A stretch of DNA of 64,000 nt, taken from the NCBI GenBank assembly GCA_030647655.1, contig JAUSJH010000006.1, forward strand, positions 3,737 to 67,736, written 5' to 3'. Every line of letters starts with the position of its first letter. Positions within the stretch are counted from its first letter, which is position 1. The stretch is from a bacterium. GTDB lineage: Bacteria > Patescibacteriota > Minisyncoccia > Phycocordibacterales > UBA2100. Shown piece by piece: positions 2,191-42,768 of the stretch. Position numbers and translations under genes: made by a program. The notes beneath the pieces are model-generated. The model was not told the origin of the DNA, did no database searches, and was given only the letters and a program-made list of their open reading frames with translations.

Positions 2191-2264
2191 TCCGCCCGCT
2201 TGGACTCGAACCAAGAACCCCAGAGGTATAAGCTCTGTGCTCTAACCAATTGAGCTACGGGCGG
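2191..2264 (-). tRNA. tRNA-Ile, anticodon UAU
   Basis: Reverse complement folds as a cloverleaf: acceptor CCGCCCG/CGGGCGG, D arm GCUC-AAUUGGUUA-GAGC, anticodon stem CAGAG/CUCUG with loop CUUAUAC (U33, A37), T arm CUUGG-UUCGAGU-CCAAG, discriminator A; no encoded CCA. Confidence 0.7.
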
Positions 2265-10455: not shown

Positions 10456-10837
10456 GGGGGTGACTGGCTTCGACAAGGAAATCGACATATATGTGCGCGG
10501 GGCAAAGCTGTAGTTGCTTTTCAACCGCTACACAATTCAAGTGCGAACAAAGTAGCACGTGCGGTTCTCTCACCTATTCAGGTGTCTGACCTGCAGTTCG
10601 CTTACGCGTTAGCCTAAGCGACCGTCCGCCAGTTCAACGCTTGATCAGAGCTGAACGGGCGTCACTTCATTCAAGCACTGATGTCGTAGGTCCGGACGAT
10701 ATCTAAGATGAGGACTCGGCGGTATACGATTCTGTTCATCTCATACGTATGCCGCTTAAATCAAAAGATGTTCTACGCTTCGTAGACACGCATATACTGT
10801 TTTTCCTTGGACGGGGGTTCGATGCCCCCCACCTCCA
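10456..10837 (+). ncRNA. ssrA: tmRNA (transfer-messenger RNA)
   Basis: 5' GGGGGUGACUGG...CGACAAGG resembles tmRNA 5' ends. 3' end GGACGGGGGUUCGAUGCCCCCCACCUCCA gives a T arm and acceptor strand pairing with the 5' end (including G3:U70). An internal frame ends ...DLQFAYALA-stop, a plausible tag peptide. Lies 40 nt after the GIY-YIG gene downstream of smpB. Confidence 0.75.
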
Positions 10838-10886
10838 CTCGATTCGGCCATATAAAATGGCCTCACTCGTGGCAAGCCACAAAATC

Positions 10887-35127: not shown

Positions 35128-35133
35128 ACGAAT

Positions 35134-35838
35134 TTATGAGGTGATGGATATTTTCTTCAGAGCCTCGATAGCCGCTCGTGCGTTGTTGACGGGATTCTTA
35201 CTTCGGGAGAGAAGCTTGGCGGTAACGTCCGATACACCGGCAAGCTCGAGCACGGTGCGCACCGACGAGCCCGCGACCAATCCGCGGCCTGGGCTCGGGC
35301 GTATCTCGACGCGTGACGCACAGAATTTTGCCTCTACGTTGTGTGCGAGCGAGCGGTTCTTGGTCAGATTCAAGCTGATCATATTGCGCTTTGCAGCGCG
35401 TGTCGCTTTCTCTATCGCTTGTGCGGTATCAGCTGCCTTCCCCAGCCCCACACCCACGCGGCCCTTCTTGTCGCCCAAGACGAGGCCTGCGCTGAAATTG
35501 AAACGGCGGCCGCCGGCCATGACACGCGCGACGCGCCGGATGCCGATAAGTTTTTGTGCAAACTCACTGCGGCGTTCATCGCCTCCGCGGCGAGGCCCTC
35601 CGCGGCCCCTCTGACCTCCACTACGGCGATCACGATTGCCGCGACCCGCAAAAGGTGCTCGCGCAGGACGCACCTCCACAGGGACTTCTACGGAAGCCTT
35701 TACCGGCACATCCTGCGCAGGCGTTTCGGCAATTACCACCACTTCGTCTTTTTGATTGTCAGCCACCCCCTGAGAAAACGAGTTCTGAGATTCAGCGAGG
35801 ATATTGTCTGTCGGATCTTTTGGAGTTGTGTCGGTCAT
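35134..35838 (-). CDS. rpsE: 30S ribosomal protein S5 (with N-terminal extension)
   Basis: IGIRRVARVMAGGRRFNFSAGLVLGDKKGRVGVGLGKA...; only 6 nt separate it from rplO, so no rpmD. Confidence 0.9.
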   Translation of the reverse strand: MTDTTPKDPTDNILAESQNSFSQGVADNQKDEVVVIAETPAQDVPVKASVEVPVEVRPARAPFAGRGNRDRRSGGQRGRGGPRRGGDERRSEFAQKLIGIRRVARVMAGGRRFNFSAGLVLGDKKGRVGVGLGKAADTAQAIEKATRAAKRNMISLNLTKNRSLAHNVEAKFCASRVEIRPSPGRGLVAGSSVRTVLELAGVSDVTAKLLSRSKNPVNNARAAIEALKKISITS

Positions 35839-36766: not shown

Positions 36767-37162
36767 TTACCAAATCTCAAAAAGCGCCTCTCCTCCGACC
36801 TTTTCCTTTCGTGCTTCTTTGTCCGTCATGACGCCGCGCGGCGTCGAGAGTACCAAAGCGCCATGCCCGTAGCGTACCGGCAGGATTTCGCGCGTACTCT
36901 TGTACATGCGCCGCCCCGGCTTCGAAATACGCTTCACGCCATTGATGGCGTGTTCGCCTTCGGCGTTGTATTTGAGGACGACGTCCAGTGTCTTTCTCAC
37001 TTTCTTTCCTTTCTTTTCGACACCAGCAACATATCCGGCGTCTTTCAATTTTTCTGCGACCGCCATTTTGAAAGCCGAGTACGGCACGGAGACAGACGTC
37101 TTTTTGATAGCACCTGCATTTTTGAGAGAGATTATGAAATCACCGATGGGATCGTTTACCAT
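36767..37162 (-). CDS. rpsH: 30S ribosomal protein S8
   Basis: [16 protein letters not shown]...[30 protein letters not shown]. Confidence 0.9.
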
Positions 37163-37341
37163 GAAGATTTTTTGATGCCGGGGATATTCCCTTCTAGTGC
37201 TTCCTCGCGGAAACAGATGCGGCAGAGATTAAAATCACGCATAAAACCGCGCGGGCGGCCGCATTTGAAACAGCGTCGCACCGTCCGAGACGAAAATTTC
37301 GGCACGCGATTCGCCTTTATTATCATTGATTTTTTGGCCAT
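37156..37341 (-). CDS. rpsN: 30S ribosomal protein S14 (zinc-binding type Z)
   Basis: 61 aa, [20 protein letters not shown] CxxC...CxxC. Confidence 0.9.
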
Positions 37342-37510
37342 ATATAGATACCCCTAGGAGACTTAGAGGCCCTTGCATCCGGCGCTTGCGCAACCGACTT
37401 ACAGAAGCTTCTTCGCGTGGCTTTGTTCTTCTTCCAACCTGTGGTCAAAAAACAAAGCCCCCTACGAGGCTCGGACAATATAGTCGATGTGGGAGGTAAA
37501 GTCAATCGAA

Positions 37511-37569
37511 TAGACAAACGTCCGAATCGGCATATATTATCCAAACTCACGTAACCACCCAATGGAGGA
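37511..37569 (+). promoter_or_regulatory. sigma70-like promoter (TAGACA-N16-TATATT) and Shine-Dalgarno GGAGGA for the inserted gene
   Basis: -35-like TAGACA 37511-37516, -10-like TATATT 37533-37538, GGAGGA 37564-37569, six nt before ATG 37576. Confidence 0.45.
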
Positions 37570-37575
37570 CGAACG

Positions 37576-38040
37576 ATGAGTGCTCTCGACAACAGGCTCT
37601 CGCCGGACCAACTGAAAGCGCCCGCGGGCAAGTTCCGCGTGGTGAAAGTCCAGACGCCGAAAGACGGCCTTGCCGATTCGGCGGCATTCTTCCTCGTCGA
37701 GGACTTCCCCGACAGGTACGACGCCCTCGTGCGTTGGCGCGACCTCGCACAGGCGGGCTGGCGCTCGGACGAAGAAGGCATCAGCTACAGGTTCTACGAC
37801 GACCAGGGCCGTATCAACGACGCGATCGGCGCGCATGTCACCGAGGGGGACCGGAAGGCACCGCCCGGCAAGTTCCGCATCATTTGCGTGGACTTTGCAG
37901 GGCATCCGCCGGCGATCAAACTCGTCACCGACCTCGACGACCGCGATGCGGCGATTGAATACGCGAAGACCGCATACGAAGGTCCGTACACCGGCTTTCA
38001 GGTGCACGACGACACCGGAGCGGCATTAATCCCGGTCTGA
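37576..38040 (+). CDS. hypothetical protein, GC-rich foreign-looking gene inserted in spc operon (opposite strand)
   Basis: 154-aa ORF with strong GC3 bias unlike neighbours, internal duplication (PAGKFRVVKVQTP / PPGKFRIICVDFAG), own promoter, SD and terminator; no family recognised. Confidence 0.55.
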   Translation: MSALDNRLSPDQLKAPAGKFRVVKVQTPKDGLADSAAFFLVEDFPDRYDALVRWRDLAQAGWRSDEEGISYRFYDDQGRINDAIGAHVTEGDRKAPPGKFRIICVDFAGHPPAIKLVTDLDDRDAAIEYAKTAYEGPYTGFQVHDDTGAALIPV

Positions 38041-38066
38041 TGACCAGGCGCGAGATTGAAAACGAA

Positions 38067-38104
38067 AACGGGCCCCGTGTTTGGGGCCCGTTGTTTTTTA
38101 TTTC
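38067..38104. terminator. bidirectional rho-independent terminator
   Basis: AACGGGCCCC-GUGUUU-GGGGCCCGUU then UGUUUUUUAUUU; the complementary strand also has a U-rich tail. Confidence 0.65.
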
Positions 38105-38652
38105 TTTGCTTCTTCTTGTTTCTCCTGCAGCGGCATGCCGAGGTGGCGAAGGAACGCTTCGGCTTCTTTTTTGTTTTTCGCCGTCGTGGTGATGGTGATG
38201 GCAAGACCGAAAATGTCTTTTGATTCCTCGTCTGAAGTCTCGGGGAATACGATGTGTTCTTTGAAGCCAATCGAGATGTTGCCCATCTCGTCGATAGCGC
38301 TCGTCTTTATGCCCCGAAAGTCTTTGACGCGCGGGAGCACGATATTTATGAGTTTACTTAAGAACGACTGCATGCGCGCGCCGCGGAGCGTCGTCTGGTA
38401 GCCCACCACGTCACCCGCGCGGCTTTTGAAATTCGCTATCGCTTTCTTCGCGGCGCGCGGCGCGGGAGCCTGCCCAGTGATGCGCGAAAGTCGGTCTACG
38501 ACAAGCTCGAGGCGTTTTTTATCTTTATTGACCTTGCCGACGCCCGAAGAAACGACGATTTTCACGACCTTCGGAGCCTGCATTACATTCCTGTAGCCAA
38601 GCTCACTTTTGAGTGCGTTGAATGTGCTCATGTGTGGTGTTGCTGTTTTCAT
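38098..38652 (-). CDS. rplE: 50S ribosomal protein L5
   Basis: Full-length L5 (…YRNVMQAPKVVKIVVSSGVG…). Confidence 0.9.
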   Translation of the reverse strand: MKTATPHMSTFNALKSELGYRNVMQAPKVVKIVVSSGVGKVNKDKKRLELVVDRLSRITGQAPAPRAAKKAIANFKSRAGDVVGYQTTLRGARMQSFLSKLINIVLPRVKDFRGIKTSAIDEMGNISIGFKEHIVFPETSDEESKDIFGLAITITTTAKNKKEAEAFLRHLGMPLQEKQEEAKK

Positions 38653-41460: not shown

Positions 41461-41811
41461 CTATTTCTTCGCTGCGGCGGTCGTGTCGGCAGTTGCCTTT
41501 GCGGCCTGCGCGGTCGCAATTTCTGCCGCTTTCGCTGCCATTTCGGTCTCTTTTTGCATCTTACCGCCGTGCTTGATGAATTTGGTCGTCGGTGCAAATT
41601 CGCCTAATCGGTGTCCCACCATGTCTTCCGAGACGTACACATCATCGAAATTCTTGCCAGTGTGTACCGCAAATGTGTAGCCGACGAATTCAGGCGCTAT
41701 CTGCGAGCTTCGCGCCCACGTCTTAATAGCCCCCTGTCCCGATTTGCGCAGAGAGACTTTCTTCATCAGTTTGACGTCCACATACGGACCCTTTTTGAGT
41801 GAGCGTGTCAT
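41461..41811 (-). CDS. rpsS: 30S ribosomal protein S19 (Ala/Lys-rich C-terminal extension)
   Basis: [12 protein letters not shown]...FAVHTGKNF...[10 protein letters not shown]. Confidence 0.9.
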
Positions 41812-41925: not shown

Positions 41926-42768
41926 TTACTTCCGCTTCCCTACCTTACGACGGCTAACAATGAAAACATTGCTGTATTTCTTTGGGCGTCTTGTCTTCTG
42001 TCCTTTACCGGAAGGTTTGCCCCACATGGTTTTCGCGCGACGCAAACCGCGACCCTGACGGCCTTCACCTCCACCGTGCGGATGGTCTACCGGATTCATC
42101 GCCGTGCCACGGACCGTGGGCCGACGCCCTAGCCATCGGCTCCTTCCTGCTTTGCCGAGATTGACCAAGCGGTGCTCCTCGTTGGAAACTTCGCCCACAG
42201 ATGCCCACGCGGTCGAAATGACTCGACGCACTTCCGTACTAGGCATCTTGAGGTGCGTGTAGCCGGCGTCCTGCGCCACTATCTCGCAGTAATTACCCGC
42301 GGCGCGCGCGAGGACAGCGCCTCCATTCGGCTTTAATTCTATGTTGTAGACAAATGTGCCGACCGGCATTCCGCCGAGTGGAAGTCGGTTACCGAGAGCG
42401 ACCGGTGCAGTCTCGGATACAAGAAAGGTGTCGCCAACCTTCACTTTTTGCGGAAGCACGACGTAGCGTTTCTCACCGTCCTGATAGATGGCAAGCCCGA
42501 TGAATGCGGAGCGGAATGGGTCGTATTCTATGGAGACGATCTTGGCGGGAATATTCTTTTTGTCGAAACGAAAATCCACCTGCCGGTAGGTCTTCTTGTG
42601 TCCGCCGCCCTGATGACGCATCGTGATGCGACCATGTGAGTTTCTCCCGCCCATAGACCTTTTGCCGCGCATGAGCGATTTTTCCGGAGCATGACCCGAA
42701 AGCAATTTCCGGTACTCTATCGAGGTGTGCTGGCGCTGTGATGGCGATGTGGGTTTGTATGTTTTCAT
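41926..42768 (-). CDS. rplB: 50S ribosomal protein L2
   Basis: Full-length L2 (…GGGHKKTYRQVDF…HPHGGGEGR…). Confidence 0.92.
   Translation of the reverse strand: MKTYKPTSPSQRQHTSIEYRKLLSGHAPEKSLMRGKRSMGGRNSHGRITMRHQGGGHKKTYRQVDFRFDKKNIPAKIVSIEYDPFRSAFIGLAIYQDGEKRYVVLPQKVKVGDTFLVSETAPVALGNRLPLGGMPVGTFVYNIELKPNGGAVLARAAGNYCEIVAQDAGYTHLKMPSTEVRRVISTAWASVGEVSNEEHRLVNLGKAGRSRWLGRRPTVRGTAMNPVDHPHGGGEGRQGRGLRRAKTMWGKPSGKGQKTRRPKKYSNVFIVSRRKVGKRK

What the first reader, a model, noticed from the sequence alone, without database searches (positions are those of the whole stretch)
37342..38105. Self-contained GC-rich gene cassette inserted between rplE and rpsN inside the spc ribosomal operon, on the opposite strand
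L5 and S14 genes are normally contiguous. Here 756 bp separate them and contain a plus-strand 154-aa ORF (37576..38040) with markedly higher GC and GC3 than surrounding genes and a canonical GGAGGA Shine-Dalgarno six nt from the ATG. It also has a sigma70-like TAGACA-N16-TATATT promoter and a strong bidirectional terminator (GGGCCCC stem plus U run) abutting the rplE stop. The protein has an internal duplication and no recognisable family. Operon transcription on the minus strand must traverse the terminator and the antisense of this gene to reach rpsN-rpsH-rplF..., implying read-through or an internal promoter.
Basis: partly seen in the sequence, partly recalled or inferred. Interest (0 to 1): 0.75.

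Follow-up and report, generated by a model that had tools for sequence, protein, structure and literature searches.

The report
Conserved orphan gene splitting ribosomal operon
A small gene of unknown function really does sit backwards between two ribosomal-protein genes, but it is a long-standing resident of a variable "cargo slot" that a whole group of tiny uncultured bacteria keep at this spot, and the ribosomal genes downstream have their own promoter and a folded RNA leader.

Summary
A 756-bp gap (37342-38097) separates rplE from rpsN. It holds a plus-strand 154-aa ORF (37576-38040) with a promoter, GGAGGA Shine-Dalgarno and a bidirectional terminator. Its GC (0.63) and GC3 (0.79) are the highest in the window.

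The "inserted foreign cassette" reading is only partly right. The protein family is small and undescribed: about 20 two-repeat members, all from Paceibacteria-like CPR bacteria. In 11 of 12 genomic contexts the gene occupies this same slot, at 30-83% protein identity.

The slot itself is a clade-wide break in the spc operon:
- rplE usually ends in a terminator.
- rpsN has its own invariant TTGACT-17-TATATT promoter in 27 relatives.
- A ~130-nt leader follows, with covariation support and no Rfam match.
- The cargo between them varies: this gene, a single-repeat relative, a YafQ/RelB toxin-antitoxin pair, a methyltransferase, a PaaX/Cas2-like protein and others.

The gene keeps its own promoter, 5'UTR and terminator even when relocated. 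Its repeat domain also occurs alone in 60-100-aa proteins in IMG/VR viral contigs and in arrays of small genes that look like mobile elements.

Function is unknown. My best guess is an accessory binding protein derived from a mobile element. Downstream operon expression most likely comes from the internal promoter, not read-through.

The parts
38098..38652 (-). rplE (ribosomal protein L5). It is the last gene of the upstream transcription unit.
   Evidence: Pfam Ribosomal_L5 and L5_C, E = 6e-31. ORF coordinates.
38060..38099 (.). Bidirectional intrinsic terminator shared by the convergent ORF and rplE. It consists of an A-run, a GC hairpin at 38067-38092 and a T-run. The T-run overlaps the rplE stop codon.
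   Evidence: Terminator scan on both strands. Folding energy -24.7 and -22.9 kcal/mol, z about -6. The stem is kept through compensatory changes in 6 loci (alignment A3). rplE is followed by a comparable hairpin in most relatives, with or without the ORF.
37576..38040 (+). 154-aa ORF made of two tandem copies of a roughly 65-aa alpha+beta domain. Predicted pI is 4.9 and mass 17 kDa.
   Evidence: 19 homologues. Codon-position pattern. AlphaFold2 model with pLDDT 89.6 and pTM 0.79. pI.
37615..37815 (+). Repeat 1, about residues 14-80. Motif: KAPxGxFRvv ... flVxDF ... helix ... YxxYDDxG.
   Evidence: Half-versus-half BLASTP, 34% identity, E = 1e-6. DNA repeat D2. Secondary structure beta-beta-alpha-beta.
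37849..38037 (+). Repeat 2, about residues 92-154. This is the better conserved half. It matches single-repeat proteins of 60-106 aa.
   Evidence: hhalign of A1 against A5 gives probability 99.8%, E = 1.9e-30, over residues 84-154.
37564..37569 (+). Shine-Dalgarno sequence GGAGGA, 6 nt before the ATG.
   Evidence: Sequence. Conserved as GGAGG in homologous loci.
37511..37538 (+). Promoter-like site of the ORF: TAGACA-16-TATATT.
   Evidence: Conserved as T(A/G)GACA-N16/17-TATAT(T/A) wherever the ORF occurs, including the relocated copies in L007 and L002.
37544..37557 (+). Conserved start of the ORF's 5'UTR (AACTCACGTAACCA). It is predicted to pair with the start-codon region ACGAUGAGU.
   Evidence: Nearly invariant across ORF-bearing loci. 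Unique in the window. The fold is -9.4 kcal/mol, no better than shuffles. Its role is unexplained.
37477..37505 (-). Internal promoter for rpsN-rpsH-rplF...: -35 TTGACT (37505-37500), 17-nt spacer, -10 TATATT (37482-37477). It lies back to back with the ORF promoter, 5 bp between the two -35 boxes.
   Evidence: The -35 box and the spacing were not part of the search pattern, yet both are invariant in all 27 distinct loci.
37342..37472 (-). Structured 5' leader of rpsN, about 130 nt. It forms a three-way junction. P0 is a closing helix that pairs the 5' GCCUC.UAGGGG with CUCUCCU..GG(C), the Shine-Dalgarno-like region. P1 pairs GCUUUGUUUUU with AAGAACAAAGC. P2-P3 is a hairpin capped by a GNRA loop.
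   Evidence: MFE folds of divergent sequence types give the same architecture. With covariance model R1, 88% of cells are paired against 40-63% when partners are slid, 19 of 36 pairs show compensatory change, and 0 of 500 shuffles reach that value. The minus strand folds at -49 kcal/mol (z -2.1) against -33 (z +0.1) for the plus strand. No Rfam match.
37156..37341 (-). rpsN (61-aa S14). It is the first gene of the downstream transcription unit.
   Evidence: Pfam Ribosomal_S14, E = 5e-23.
36767..37162 (-). rpsH (S8). It overlaps the end of rpsN by 7 nt.
   Evidence: Pfam Ribosomal_S8, E = 1e-38.

Best explanation
SHOWN.
(1) The ORF is a genuine protein-coding gene under purifying selection. It forms a monocistronic module with its own sigma70-like promoter, a conserved 5'UTR, a strong Shine-Dalgarno sequence and a hairpin terminator.
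(2) It belongs to a small, undescribed family of two-repeat proteins. All members come from metagenomes or MAGs, and the named ones are Paceibacteria-like CPR bacteria. In 11 of 12 contexts the gene lies in this same slot, convergent with rplE and usually divergent from rpsN.
(3) In this clade the spc operon is split at rplE|rpsN whether or not the gene is present. rplE is generally followed by a strong terminator. rpsN is preceded by an invariant promoter-like site and a covariation-supported structured leader.
(4) The DNA between terminator and promoter varies among relatives, from about 0.38 to 2.4 kb. It can hold this gene, a single-repeat relative, a YafQ/RelB-like toxin-antitoxin pair, a SAM methyltransferase, a PaaX/Cas2-like protein, a receiver domain, a Fis-type HTH protein, guanylate kinase or unknown genes.
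(5) The repeat domain also occurs on its own in 60-106-aa proteins. These lie in large IMG/VR viral contigs and in arrays of small genes, near SSB, an RNaseH-like gene and an Eco57I-type methyltransferase.

INFERRED.
- The downstream ribosomal genes (rpsN to secY) are transcribed from the internal promoter, not by read-through across the antisense of the ORF. The bidirectional terminator insulates the two convergent units.
- The leader probably gives autogenous, ribosomal-protein-dependent control of translation by closing helix P0 over the Shine-Dalgarno-like GG(C).
- The slot behaves as an accessory-gene hot spot. Its cargo can be swapped by homologous recombination because the flanks (ribosomal-protein genes and the leader) are among the most conserved DNA in these genomes.
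- The 154-aa protein is most likely a non-enzymatic, pseudo-dimeric binding protein that derives from a small protein of a mobile element or phage. It would act by stoichiometric binding of a partner, in a conflict or modulator role. It was acquired long ago and is kept patchily.

The biochemical target is unknown.
For: Coding status: codon-position differences of 0.29, 0.26 and 0.52. There are 19 full-length homologues with 25 invariant residues. The AlphaFold2 model is confident.

Same slot. The only exception is L002, which still carries the module's promoter, UTR and terminator.

Clade-wide split:
- 23 metagenome loci were found with the leader/-10 motif, and in all of them the motif lies 115-150 nt upstream of rpsN.
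- The -35 TTGACT and the 17-nt spacing are invariant although they were not in the search pattern.
- Terminators follow rplE in loci that lack the ORF.

Leader structure.

Variable cargo. L024 has only a 377-nt gap, with no complete gene in it.

Link to phages and mobile elements: profile search, hhalign probability 99.8%, genomic contexts, and IMG/VR contigs of 103, 238 and 317 kb.

Not recently mobile: no target-site duplication or terminal inverted repeats, and no hit in reference phages or plasmids.

Precedent: insertion of a few genes into the ribosomal operon cluster is a known route to operon disconnection (PMC8046335).
Against: - No expression data exist. Promoters, transcription start sites and terminators are consensus predictions supported by conservation only.
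- CPR promoter rules have not been characterised.
- The leader loci were collected with a pattern that fixes 22 nt, including the 5' arm of P0. P0 therefore shows only one-sided changes, and the sample is biased towards close relatives.
- The strict positional fidelity over deep divergence, and the second location next to prfA, rpmE, rpsB and tsf, fit a translation-linked role at least as well as an accessory role.
- Recombinational cargo swapping is inferred only from patchy presence and from a weak, non-significant correlation between ORF and S8 identity (r = 0.33, 15 pairs).
- IMG/VR contigs can include misclassified cellular DNA.
Confidence: 0.62

Rival explanations
1. One reading: a recently acquired foreign cassette from a higher-GC donor inserted into an otherwise intact spc operon of this genome. 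This would force read-through or ad hoc expression of the downstream genes.
For: The ORF is the strongest GC and GC3 outlier among about 70 ORFs in the window. It is a self-contained module. Its domain has relatives in viral contigs and in arrays that look like mobile elements. ORF divergence does not track S8 divergence.
Against: The same gene lies in the same slot and orientation in at least 10 other genomes, at 30-83% identity. The operon split, the rpsN promoter and the leader exist in relatives that lack the gene. No target-site duplication, inverted repeats or integrase were found. All two-repeat members come from the same kind of organism. The GC3 excess is absent in L001 and L002.
Confidence: 0.07
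2. The protein is a lineage-specific translation or ribosome-associated factor, for example an assembly, hibernation or regulatory factor. Its position next to ribosomal-protein genes would then reflect function and co-regulation, not a neutral hot spot.
For: Eleven of 12 contexts are in the rplE|rpsN slot, and this holds down to about 30% identity. The single relocated copy again sits among translation genes: prfA, rpmE, rpsB and tsf. The promoter is back to back with the rpsN promoter. The strong Shine-Dalgarno sequence and high GC3 are compatible with high expression. Very weak fold echoes of eIF4E and ClpS appear in the structure searches.
Against: The gene is absent from 13 of 18 related loci in which the whole gap was recovered, so it is dispensable. 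The slot also holds clearly unrelated cargo, such as a toxin-antitoxin pair, a methyltransferase and a PaaX-like protein. Single-repeat relatives sit in viral contigs and mobile-element-like arrays, not in translation contexts. The family's pI ranges from 4.8 to 8.9. The fold matches are not significant.
Confidence: 0.2
3. The protein regulates the divergent rpsN promoter or its leader, as a divergently transcribed autoregulator would.
For: The two -35 boxes are 5 bp apart. The ORF's promoter and 5'UTR are strongly conserved.
Against: There is no DNA- or RNA-binding motif, and the protein is mostly acidic. The rpsN promoter and leader are equally conserved in loci without the gene. The gene keeps its module when it is moved 1.3 kb away or to another locus.
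Confidence: 0.04
4. The ORF is a chance open frame in a GC-rich non-coding spacer.
For: A 156-aa antisense ORF (37537..38007) is also open. This shows that long open frames arise easily in this stretch.
Against: Substitutions concentrate at third codon positions in the plus frame. Start, stop, Shine-Dalgarno and length are conserved in 19 or more homologues. The structure prediction is confident. Profile hits reach distant homologues.
Confidence: 0.01

Closest known systems
Small gene insertions that break ribosomal-protein operon clusters (Brandis 2021, Genome Biol Evol, PMC8046335)
   Same: [quoted passage not shown] The inserted content is not kept in all descendants. That paper also shows the rplE-rpsN-rpsH segment to be a site of recombinational exchange, of rpsN isoforms in Streptococcus.
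   Different: Here the break is inside the spc operon rather than between operons. It is opposite-strand, and it is fixed across a clade. It comes with a dedicated terminator, an internal promoter and a structured leader. The inserted content turns over like an accessory-gene hot spot.
S8-dependent autoregulation of the E. coli spc operon (mRNA site overlapping the start of rplE; Fu et al. 2013, PMC3616713)
   Same: A structured mRNA element within the spc gene set is positioned to control translation of rpsN and the genes after it. rpsH (S8) is the second gene of the unit served by the new leader.
   Different: The location differs: this element is a 5' leader of rpsN, not a site at the rplE start. 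The architecture differs: a three-way junction of about 130 nt. There is no Rfam match. The binding protein is unknown, and mimicry of the S8 site in 16S rRNA was not tested.
Small phage or mobile-element proteins found in arrays of short genes, such as anti-defence, antitoxin or modulator proteins (Dmd, Acr proteins)
Bidirectional intrinsic terminators between convergent genes
   Same: A GC-rich hairpin is flanked by an A-run and a T-run, so that it reads as a terminator on both strands. It lies between two convergent stop codons.
   Different: Nothing unusual. It is simply an unexpected element to find inside a spc operon.

Membership tests
Any described protein family (Pfam-A, NCBIfam, PHROGs, PADLOC, PDB sequences) | Significant profile or sequence match | tested here: not met
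   No hit for the ORF or for its single-repeat relatives. The only trace is YaiA at E = 0.0036 for P0033, below the family cut-off.
Any solved or predicted fold family | Significant structural match of the confident AlphaFold2 model | tested here: not met
Recently integrated mobile element or genomic islet | Compositional deviation from the host genome | tested here: met
   GC 0.632 and GC3 0.794, against window means of 0.530 and 0.572.
Recently integrated mobile element or genomic islet | Flanking direct repeats or att sites, terminal inverted repeats, or an integrase or transposase | tested here: not met
   No flanking repeats. The gap holds only this ORF.
Recently integrated mobile element or genomic islet | Site empty in close relatives, and the gene absent from the lineage otherwise | tested here: not met
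   The gene is present at the same site in diverged relatives. The site is never 'closed': even the shortest gap (L024, 377 nt) keeps the promoter and leader.
Accessory-gene hot spot between conserved core genes | Conserved flanks with different gene content among related genomes | tested here: met
   There are 27 distinct loci with the same rpsN promoter and leader. In the 18 of them that span the whole gap, rplE forms the other flank and the cargo differs: a toxin-antitoxin pair, a methyltransferase, a PaaX/Cas2-like protein, a receiver domain, an HTH protein, guanylate kinase, unknown genes, or this ORF.
Accessory-gene hot spot between conserved core genes | Evidence of exchange, i.e. incongruence between gene tree and host tree | tested here: inconclusive
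   The correlation between ORF identity and S8 identity is r = 0.33 and not significant, from 15 pairs of 6 taxa. This is too few data points, and the divergence is near saturation.
Sigma70-type promoter (rpsN internal promoter and ORF promoter) | -35 and -10 hexamers with 16-18 nt spacing | tested here: met
   TTGACT-17-TATATT on the minus strand and TAGACA-16-TATATT on the plus strand, each matching 10 of 12 positions.
Sigma70-type promoter (rpsN internal promoter and ORF promoter) | Conservation of hexamers and spacing in relatives | tested here: met
   for rpsN. The -35 box and the spacing were outside the search pattern, but the -10 box was inside it. for the ORF promoter.
Sigma70-type promoter (rpsN internal promoter and ORF promoter) | Mapped transcription start site | not testable with these tools
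   No transcript data.
Intrinsic (Rho-independent) terminator, bidirectional | Stable GC-rich hairpin followed by a U-run on each strand, with the stem conserved through compensatory changes | tested here: met
Ribosomal-protein autoregulatory leader | Conserved secondary structure with covariation in the 5'UTR of a ribosomal-protein gene | tested here: met
   88% of cells are paired, against 40-63% when partners are slid. 19 of 36 pairs show changes on both sides. 0 of 500 shuffles reach the observed values. Independent MFE folds agree. Caveats: the alignment was fitted to the model, and the 5' arm of P0 was fixed by the way the loci were collected.
Ribosomal-protein autoregulatory leader | Structure occludes the ribosome-binding site or start codon | tested here: inconclusive
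   Predicted helix P0 pairs the Shine-Dalgarno-like GG(C)/AGGGG with the 5' GCC(UC). It is 84-98% paired, but only one-sided changes are seen.
Ribosomal-protein autoregulatory leader | Binding of a ribosomal protein encoded in the operon, and mimicry of its rRNA site | not tested
   The resemblance of UGUAAGUCGG/CCGGAUGCAAGG to the S8 site in 16S helix 21 is recalled from memory only. There is no 16S gene in the window.
Ribosomal-protein autoregulatory leader | Membership of a described Rfam leader family | tested here: not met
   No Rfam hit in 37342-37472 at E <= 1 or at gathering thresholds.

The most novel reading that the evidence does not exclude
A clade of CPR bacteria has converted the rplE|rpsN junction of the universally conserved spc operon into a permanent, insulated docking site for exchangeable accessory genes. 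The site runs terminator, cargo, internal promoter, then a new ribosomal-protein-responsive riboregulator. Its most faithful tenant would be a tandem-repeat protein co-opted from a small phage protein domain, which has become a clade-specific modulator of translation or the ribosome rather than a passenger.
Probability: 0.12. Interest if true: 0.8.

Novelty: new variant of a known kind. Interest (0 to 1): 0.5.

Why it matters
The S10-spc-alpha ribosomal gene cluster is among the most rigid pieces of gene order in bacteria. Here a whole clade tolerates a break in the middle of spc and has built infrastructure around it. The break has an opposite-strand tenant, a bidirectional terminator, a new internal promoter and a covariation-supported leader RNA that is absent from Rfam.

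That yields three testable results:
1. A candidate new ribosomal-protein leader for organisms in which no such regulation has been described.
2. A natural accessory-gene slot flanked by ultra-conserved DNA. This is relevant to how CPR genomes exchange genes.
3. An undescribed small protein domain (KAPxGxFR...DDxG) shared between CPR bacteria and large phage-like contigs.

None of this overturns a principle. The protein's function remains unknown.

Tried and rejected
- Pfam, NCBIfam, PHROGs, PADLOC and PDB-sequence searches of the ORF and of single-repeat relatives found nothing.
- tblastn against reference phages and plasmids gave no match.
- The GTDB species-representative scan returned only one locus, the genome already found, so it gave no view of taxonomic distribution.
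- I first read the GCCUCGUAGGGGGC hairpin plus U-run just after the rpsN promoter as an attenuator or terminator. I rejected this. The U-run is the 5' strand of helix P1, with compensatory changes, and it is not U-rich in one leader type. The G-run pairs with the distal CUCUCCU.
- The Rfam L20_leader hit at 38054-38171(-) scores 29.9 bits against a gathering score of 58.7. It overlaps the terminator hairpin, and I treat it as chance.
- Small plus-strand ORFs across the leader (for example 37326..37499) look conserved only because the nucleotides are conserved. Their frames differ among loci, so I rejected them as genes.
- The test of gene-tree against host-tree congruence, using S8 identity, was underpowered.
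- No paralogue of the ORF and no second copy of its 5'UTR motif occurs in the window.
- No target-site duplication or terminal repeats were found.
Full report
**1. Observation**

- Pfam identifies rplE at 38098..38652(-), rpsN (61-aa S14) at 37156..37341(-) and rpsH at 36767..37162(-).
- The 756-bp gap between rplE and rpsN holds one long plus-strand ORF, 37576..38040, of 154 aa.
- GGAGGA lies six nt before the ATG.
- A TAGACA-16-TATATT promoter-like site lies at 37511..37538.
- A hairpin at 38067..38092 reads as an intrinsic terminator on both strands and abuts the rplE stop codon. Its folding energy is -24.7 and -22.9 kcal/mol, with z about -6.
- The ORF's GC (0.632) and GC3 (0.794) exceed those of all of about 70 ORFs in the window, whose means are 0.530 and 0.572 and whose maximum GC3 is 0.71.
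- The two halves of the protein are homologous: 34% identity, E = 1e-6, with a 25-nt DNA repeat 240 nt apart.
- No described family matches.

The rest of the cluster is contiguous and co-directional: rplB-rpsS...rplX-rplE on one side and rpsN-rpsH-rplF-rplR-rpsE-rplO-secY on the other. This is therefore the only break.

**2. The ORF is a real gene, and it is not unique to this genome**

A search of 5.8 billion proteins found 19 full-length homologues at 43-100% identity. All are unnamed. The labelled ones come from 'Candidatus Paceibacterota' or unclassified MAGs. They align end to end with 25 invariant residues.

Among eight homologous coding sequences, differences are 0.29, 0.26 and 0.52 at codon positions 1, 2 and 3. 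That is the signature of a translated plus-strand frame. The 156-aa antisense ORF is a by-product of high GC3.

AlphaFold2 with this alignment gives a confident model, with pLDDT 89.6 and pTM 0.79. Each repeat folds as beta-beta-alpha-beta(-beta). A profile search of 1.84 billion cluster representatives found only about 13 two-repeat clusters, so the family is rare.

**3. The gene occupies the same slot in relatives**

Context look-ups place the gene between rplE and rpsN on the opposite strand in these cases:
- L001 (60% identity), the P0013 contig, L003, L005/L006, L007, the P0019 contig, L042, and the very divergent P0029 in L043.
- The metagenome loci L012, L016 and L031.

The only exception is L002, where the gene lies between prfA-rpmE and a PemK toxin-antitoxin pair with rpsB-tsf.

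That makes 11 of 12 independent contexts, across 30-83% protein identity, in this one slot. No target-site duplication, terminal repeats or integrase flank the window copy. This rules out a recent insertion specific to this genome.

Composition is the exception to that criterion. GC3 is also elevated relative to neighbours in L003, L005 and L007, but not in L001 or L002. The bias therefore belongs to the gene and does not show recent arrival.

**4. The gene is nevertheless a self-contained module**

Wherever the ORF occurs, it is preceded by three elements:
- T(A/G)GACA-N16/17-TATAT(T/A);
- a nearly invariant transcript start, GTCnnCACTCACGTAACCA;
- GGAGG.

It is followed by a GC hairpin whose stem is kept through compensatory changes and is flanked by an A-run and a T-run.

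These elements stay with the gene in L007, where a methyltransferase and another gene separate it from rpsN, and in L002 at the prfA locus.

The conserved 5'UTR is predicted to pair with the start-codon region (ACUCACGU with ACGAUGAGU). That may explain the invariant Ser2 AGT codon. However, the fold is no better than shuffles and shows no covariation. I leave it unexplained.

**5. The break in the operon is a feature of the clade, not of the gene**

Aligning the rpsN-ORF intergenic regions revealed a block far more conserved than the proteins. I searched metagenome contigs with 22 fixed bases of that block. This returned 23 loci, and in every one the motif lies 115-150 nt upstream of rpsN, in the same orientation.

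In all 27 distinct loci, the -35 box TTGACT and its 17-nt spacing to TATATT are invariant, although neither was part of the search pattern. In the window this promoter-like site is at 37505..37477 on the minus strand. It stands back to back with the ORF's promoter.

rplE is followed by a strong hairpin-plus-U terminator in most relatives, whether or not the ORF is present. The structure is weaker where a methyltransferase follows rplE on the same strand.

The conserved evidence favours an internal promoter. The bidirectional terminator would insulate the two convergent units. This remains an inference without transcript data.

**6. A structured leader precedes rpsN**

The roughly 130 nt between the predicted start (about 37470) and the rpsN ATG fall into several sequence types, and all fold alike.
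- Independent MFE folds give a three-way junction. Closing helix P0 pairs the 5' GCCUC.UAGGGG with the distal CUCUCCU...GG(C). P1 pairs GCUUUGUUUUU with AAGAACAAAGC. P2-P3 is a hairpin with a GNRA loop.
- RNAalifold and duplex folding show compensatory changes in P1 and P3.
- A covariance model (R1) aligned all 27 loci. On that alignment, 88% of cells pair, against 40-63% when partners are slid. Nineteen of 36 pairs show changes on both sides, and 0 of 500 shuffles reach the observed values.
- The minus strand folds much better than the plus strand: -49 kcal/mol (z -2.1) against -33 (z +0.1).
- Rfam has no match here.

Two caveats apply. The alignment is fitted to the model. The 5' arm of P0 was fixed by the search pattern, so P0 shows only one-sided changes.

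What I first read as a hairpin-plus-U-run terminator just after the promoter is really the strands of P0 and P1.

This is most simply a new candidate ribosomal-protein leader. In E. coli, S8 controls the spc operon through an mRNA site at the start of rplE (PMC3616713). In this clade the unit begins with rpsN-rpsH, so S8 is a natural candidate ligand. That idea is untested.

**7. The slot is an accessory-gene hot spot**

Between the rplE terminator and the rpsN promoter, relatives carry different cargo (for Pfam labels on called genes):
- nothing complete (L024, 377 nt);
- the two-repeat gene;
- a single-repeat homologue (L023, identical to P0038);
- a YafQ-type toxin with a RelB-like antitoxin (L014);
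- a class-I SAM methyltransferase co-directional with rplE (at least nine loci);
- a PaaX_M/Cas2-like protein;
- a receiver domain;
- a Fis-type HTH protein;
- guanylate kinase;
- several proteins with no family.

Of 18 loci that span the whole gap, four carry the two-repeat gene, one carries the single-repeat form and 13 lack both. The gene occurs in all four leader sequence types and is missing from other members of each type. ORF identity does not track S8 identity (r = 0.33, not significant, 15 pairs).

This pattern fits an old resident with many losses. It also fits swapping of cargo by recombination between the very conserved flanks. The data cannot separate the two.

Small insertions into the ribosomal operon cluster, and recombinational exchange in the rplE-rpsN-rpsH segment, have been described in other phyla (PMC8046335).

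**8. What the protein might be**

The repeat is a previously undescribed domain. Its motif is KAPxGxFRvv, then a hydrophobic strand ending in D, a helix (..eeAI.yA..), and y.VhDDtG.

The domain also occurs as stand-alone proteins of 60-106 aa. Profile hits are, and hhalign gives probability 99.8%. These single-repeat proteins lie in arrays of short genes:
- next to SSB and an RNaseH-like gene (L035/L036);
- beside DUF4262, DUF7736 and an Eco57I-type methyltransferase in Ignavibacteriaceae (L033/L034);
- next to a SNF2/ResIII helicase (L037);
- in four IMG/VR viral contigs, three of them 103-317 kb long.

The window protein is acidic (pI 4.9), but the family ranges from pI 4.8 to 8.9. Structure searches give only generic small alpha+beta neighbours (ClpS, Dmd, Acr proteins, eIF4E) at non-significant scores.

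The best-supported reading is a non-enzymatic protein in which two fused repeats act as a pseudo-dimer and bind a partner. It would be of mobile-element ancestry and serve an accessory, conflict or modulator role. I hold this at about 0.3 on its own.

A translation-linked role is the main rival, at about 0.2. The reasons are the striking positional fidelity and the fact that the one relocated copy again sits among translation genes.

**9. Verdict**

The sequence of elements is:
- rplE;
- the bidirectional terminator;
- the exchangeable cargo, here a conserved orphan two-repeat gene with its own promoter and UTR;
- the invariant rpsN promoter;
- a new structured leader;
- rpsN-rpsH and the genes that follow.

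As a kind of thing, accessory genes interrupting a ribosomal operon cluster are known. The within-spc position, the dedicated regulatory elements, the hot-spot behaviour and the undescribed protein domain make this a new variant. Interest is moderate (0.5). The leader RNA and the protein domain shared with phage-like contigs are the parts most worth following up.

Noticed in passing
window 37342-37472 (-); same element in L001, L003, L005, L007, L010-L032, L042: A roughly 130-nt structured 5' leader of rpsN forms a three-way junction, with helix P0 over the Shine-Dalgarno-like GG. It has covariation support and no Rfam match. It is a candidate new ribosomal-protein leader. S8, S14 and L5 have not been tested as ligands.
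   Followed up: partly
L014, L025, L026, L027, L029, L007, L011, L021, L005 (gap between rplE and rpsN): Relatives carry different cargo in the same slot: a YafQ toxin with a RelB-like antitoxin, a 229-aa SAM methyltransferase co-directional with rplE, a PaaX_M/Cas2-like 194-aa protein, a receiver domain, a Fis-type HTH protein, guanylate kinase and several proteins with no family.
   Followed up: partly
L023 887..1162 in the re-oriented locus (not the stored L023 coordinates); identical to P0038: A single-repeat (91-aa) member of the same domain family occupies the same slot, divergent from rpsN. It may show what the gene looked like before the tandem duplication.
   Followed up: partly
window 37544-37557 (+) and 37571-37581 (+): The start of the ORF's 5'UTR (ACUCACGUAACCA) is nearly invariant. 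It is complementary to ACGAUGAGU around the start codon, and Ser2 is invariant as an AGT codon. This could be a 5' hairpin that occludes the start codon, or an operator. The fold is not statistically distinguishable from shuffles.
   Followed up: partly
window 35137-35838 (-): Ribosomal protein S5 carries an N-terminal extension of about 93 aa that is low-complexity and rich in Arg and Gly (RGG-like). It coincides with a local GC peak of 0.63-0.65 at about 35250-35700.
   Followed up: no
window 35128-35133: There is no rpmD (L30) gene between rpsE and rplO; only 6 nt separate them. Relatives L001, L003 and L005 show the same gap. From my own knowledge, loss of L30 is typical of CPR bacteria.
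   Followed up: no
L001 8063-8206 and the P0013 contig: In two relatives, rpsS is followed by a plus-strand gene instead of rplB. This suggests a second break in the S10 part of the cluster. In the window, rplB (41926..42768) does adjoin rpsS (41461..41811), 114 nt apart.
   Followed up: no
window 10456-10840 (+) and 2191-2264 (-): A tmRNA gene (115 bits) and one tRNA are the only Rfam matches at gathering threshold in the 64-kb window.
   Followed up: no
P0032 (3265 aa), P0040 (2560 aa), P0042, P0051: Giant proteins match the family profile in many short stretches; P0032 has 22 stretches on profile positions 64-95. This may be a repeat that resembles the beta3-turn region, or a low-complexity artefact.
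   Followed up: no
window 37522-37532 and 37671-37681: A perfect 11-nt inverted repeat, CCGAATCGGCA and TGCCGATTCGG, links the spacer of the ORF promoter to a site inside the ORF. About 0.1 such matches are expected by chance in 1 kb, so it is probably coincidence.
   Followed up: no
window 38054-38171 (-): A weak Rfam L20_leader hit (29.9 bits against a gathering score of 58.7, E = 0.003) overlaps the terminator hairpin and the 3' end of rplE. I judge it to be chance.
   Followed up: partly
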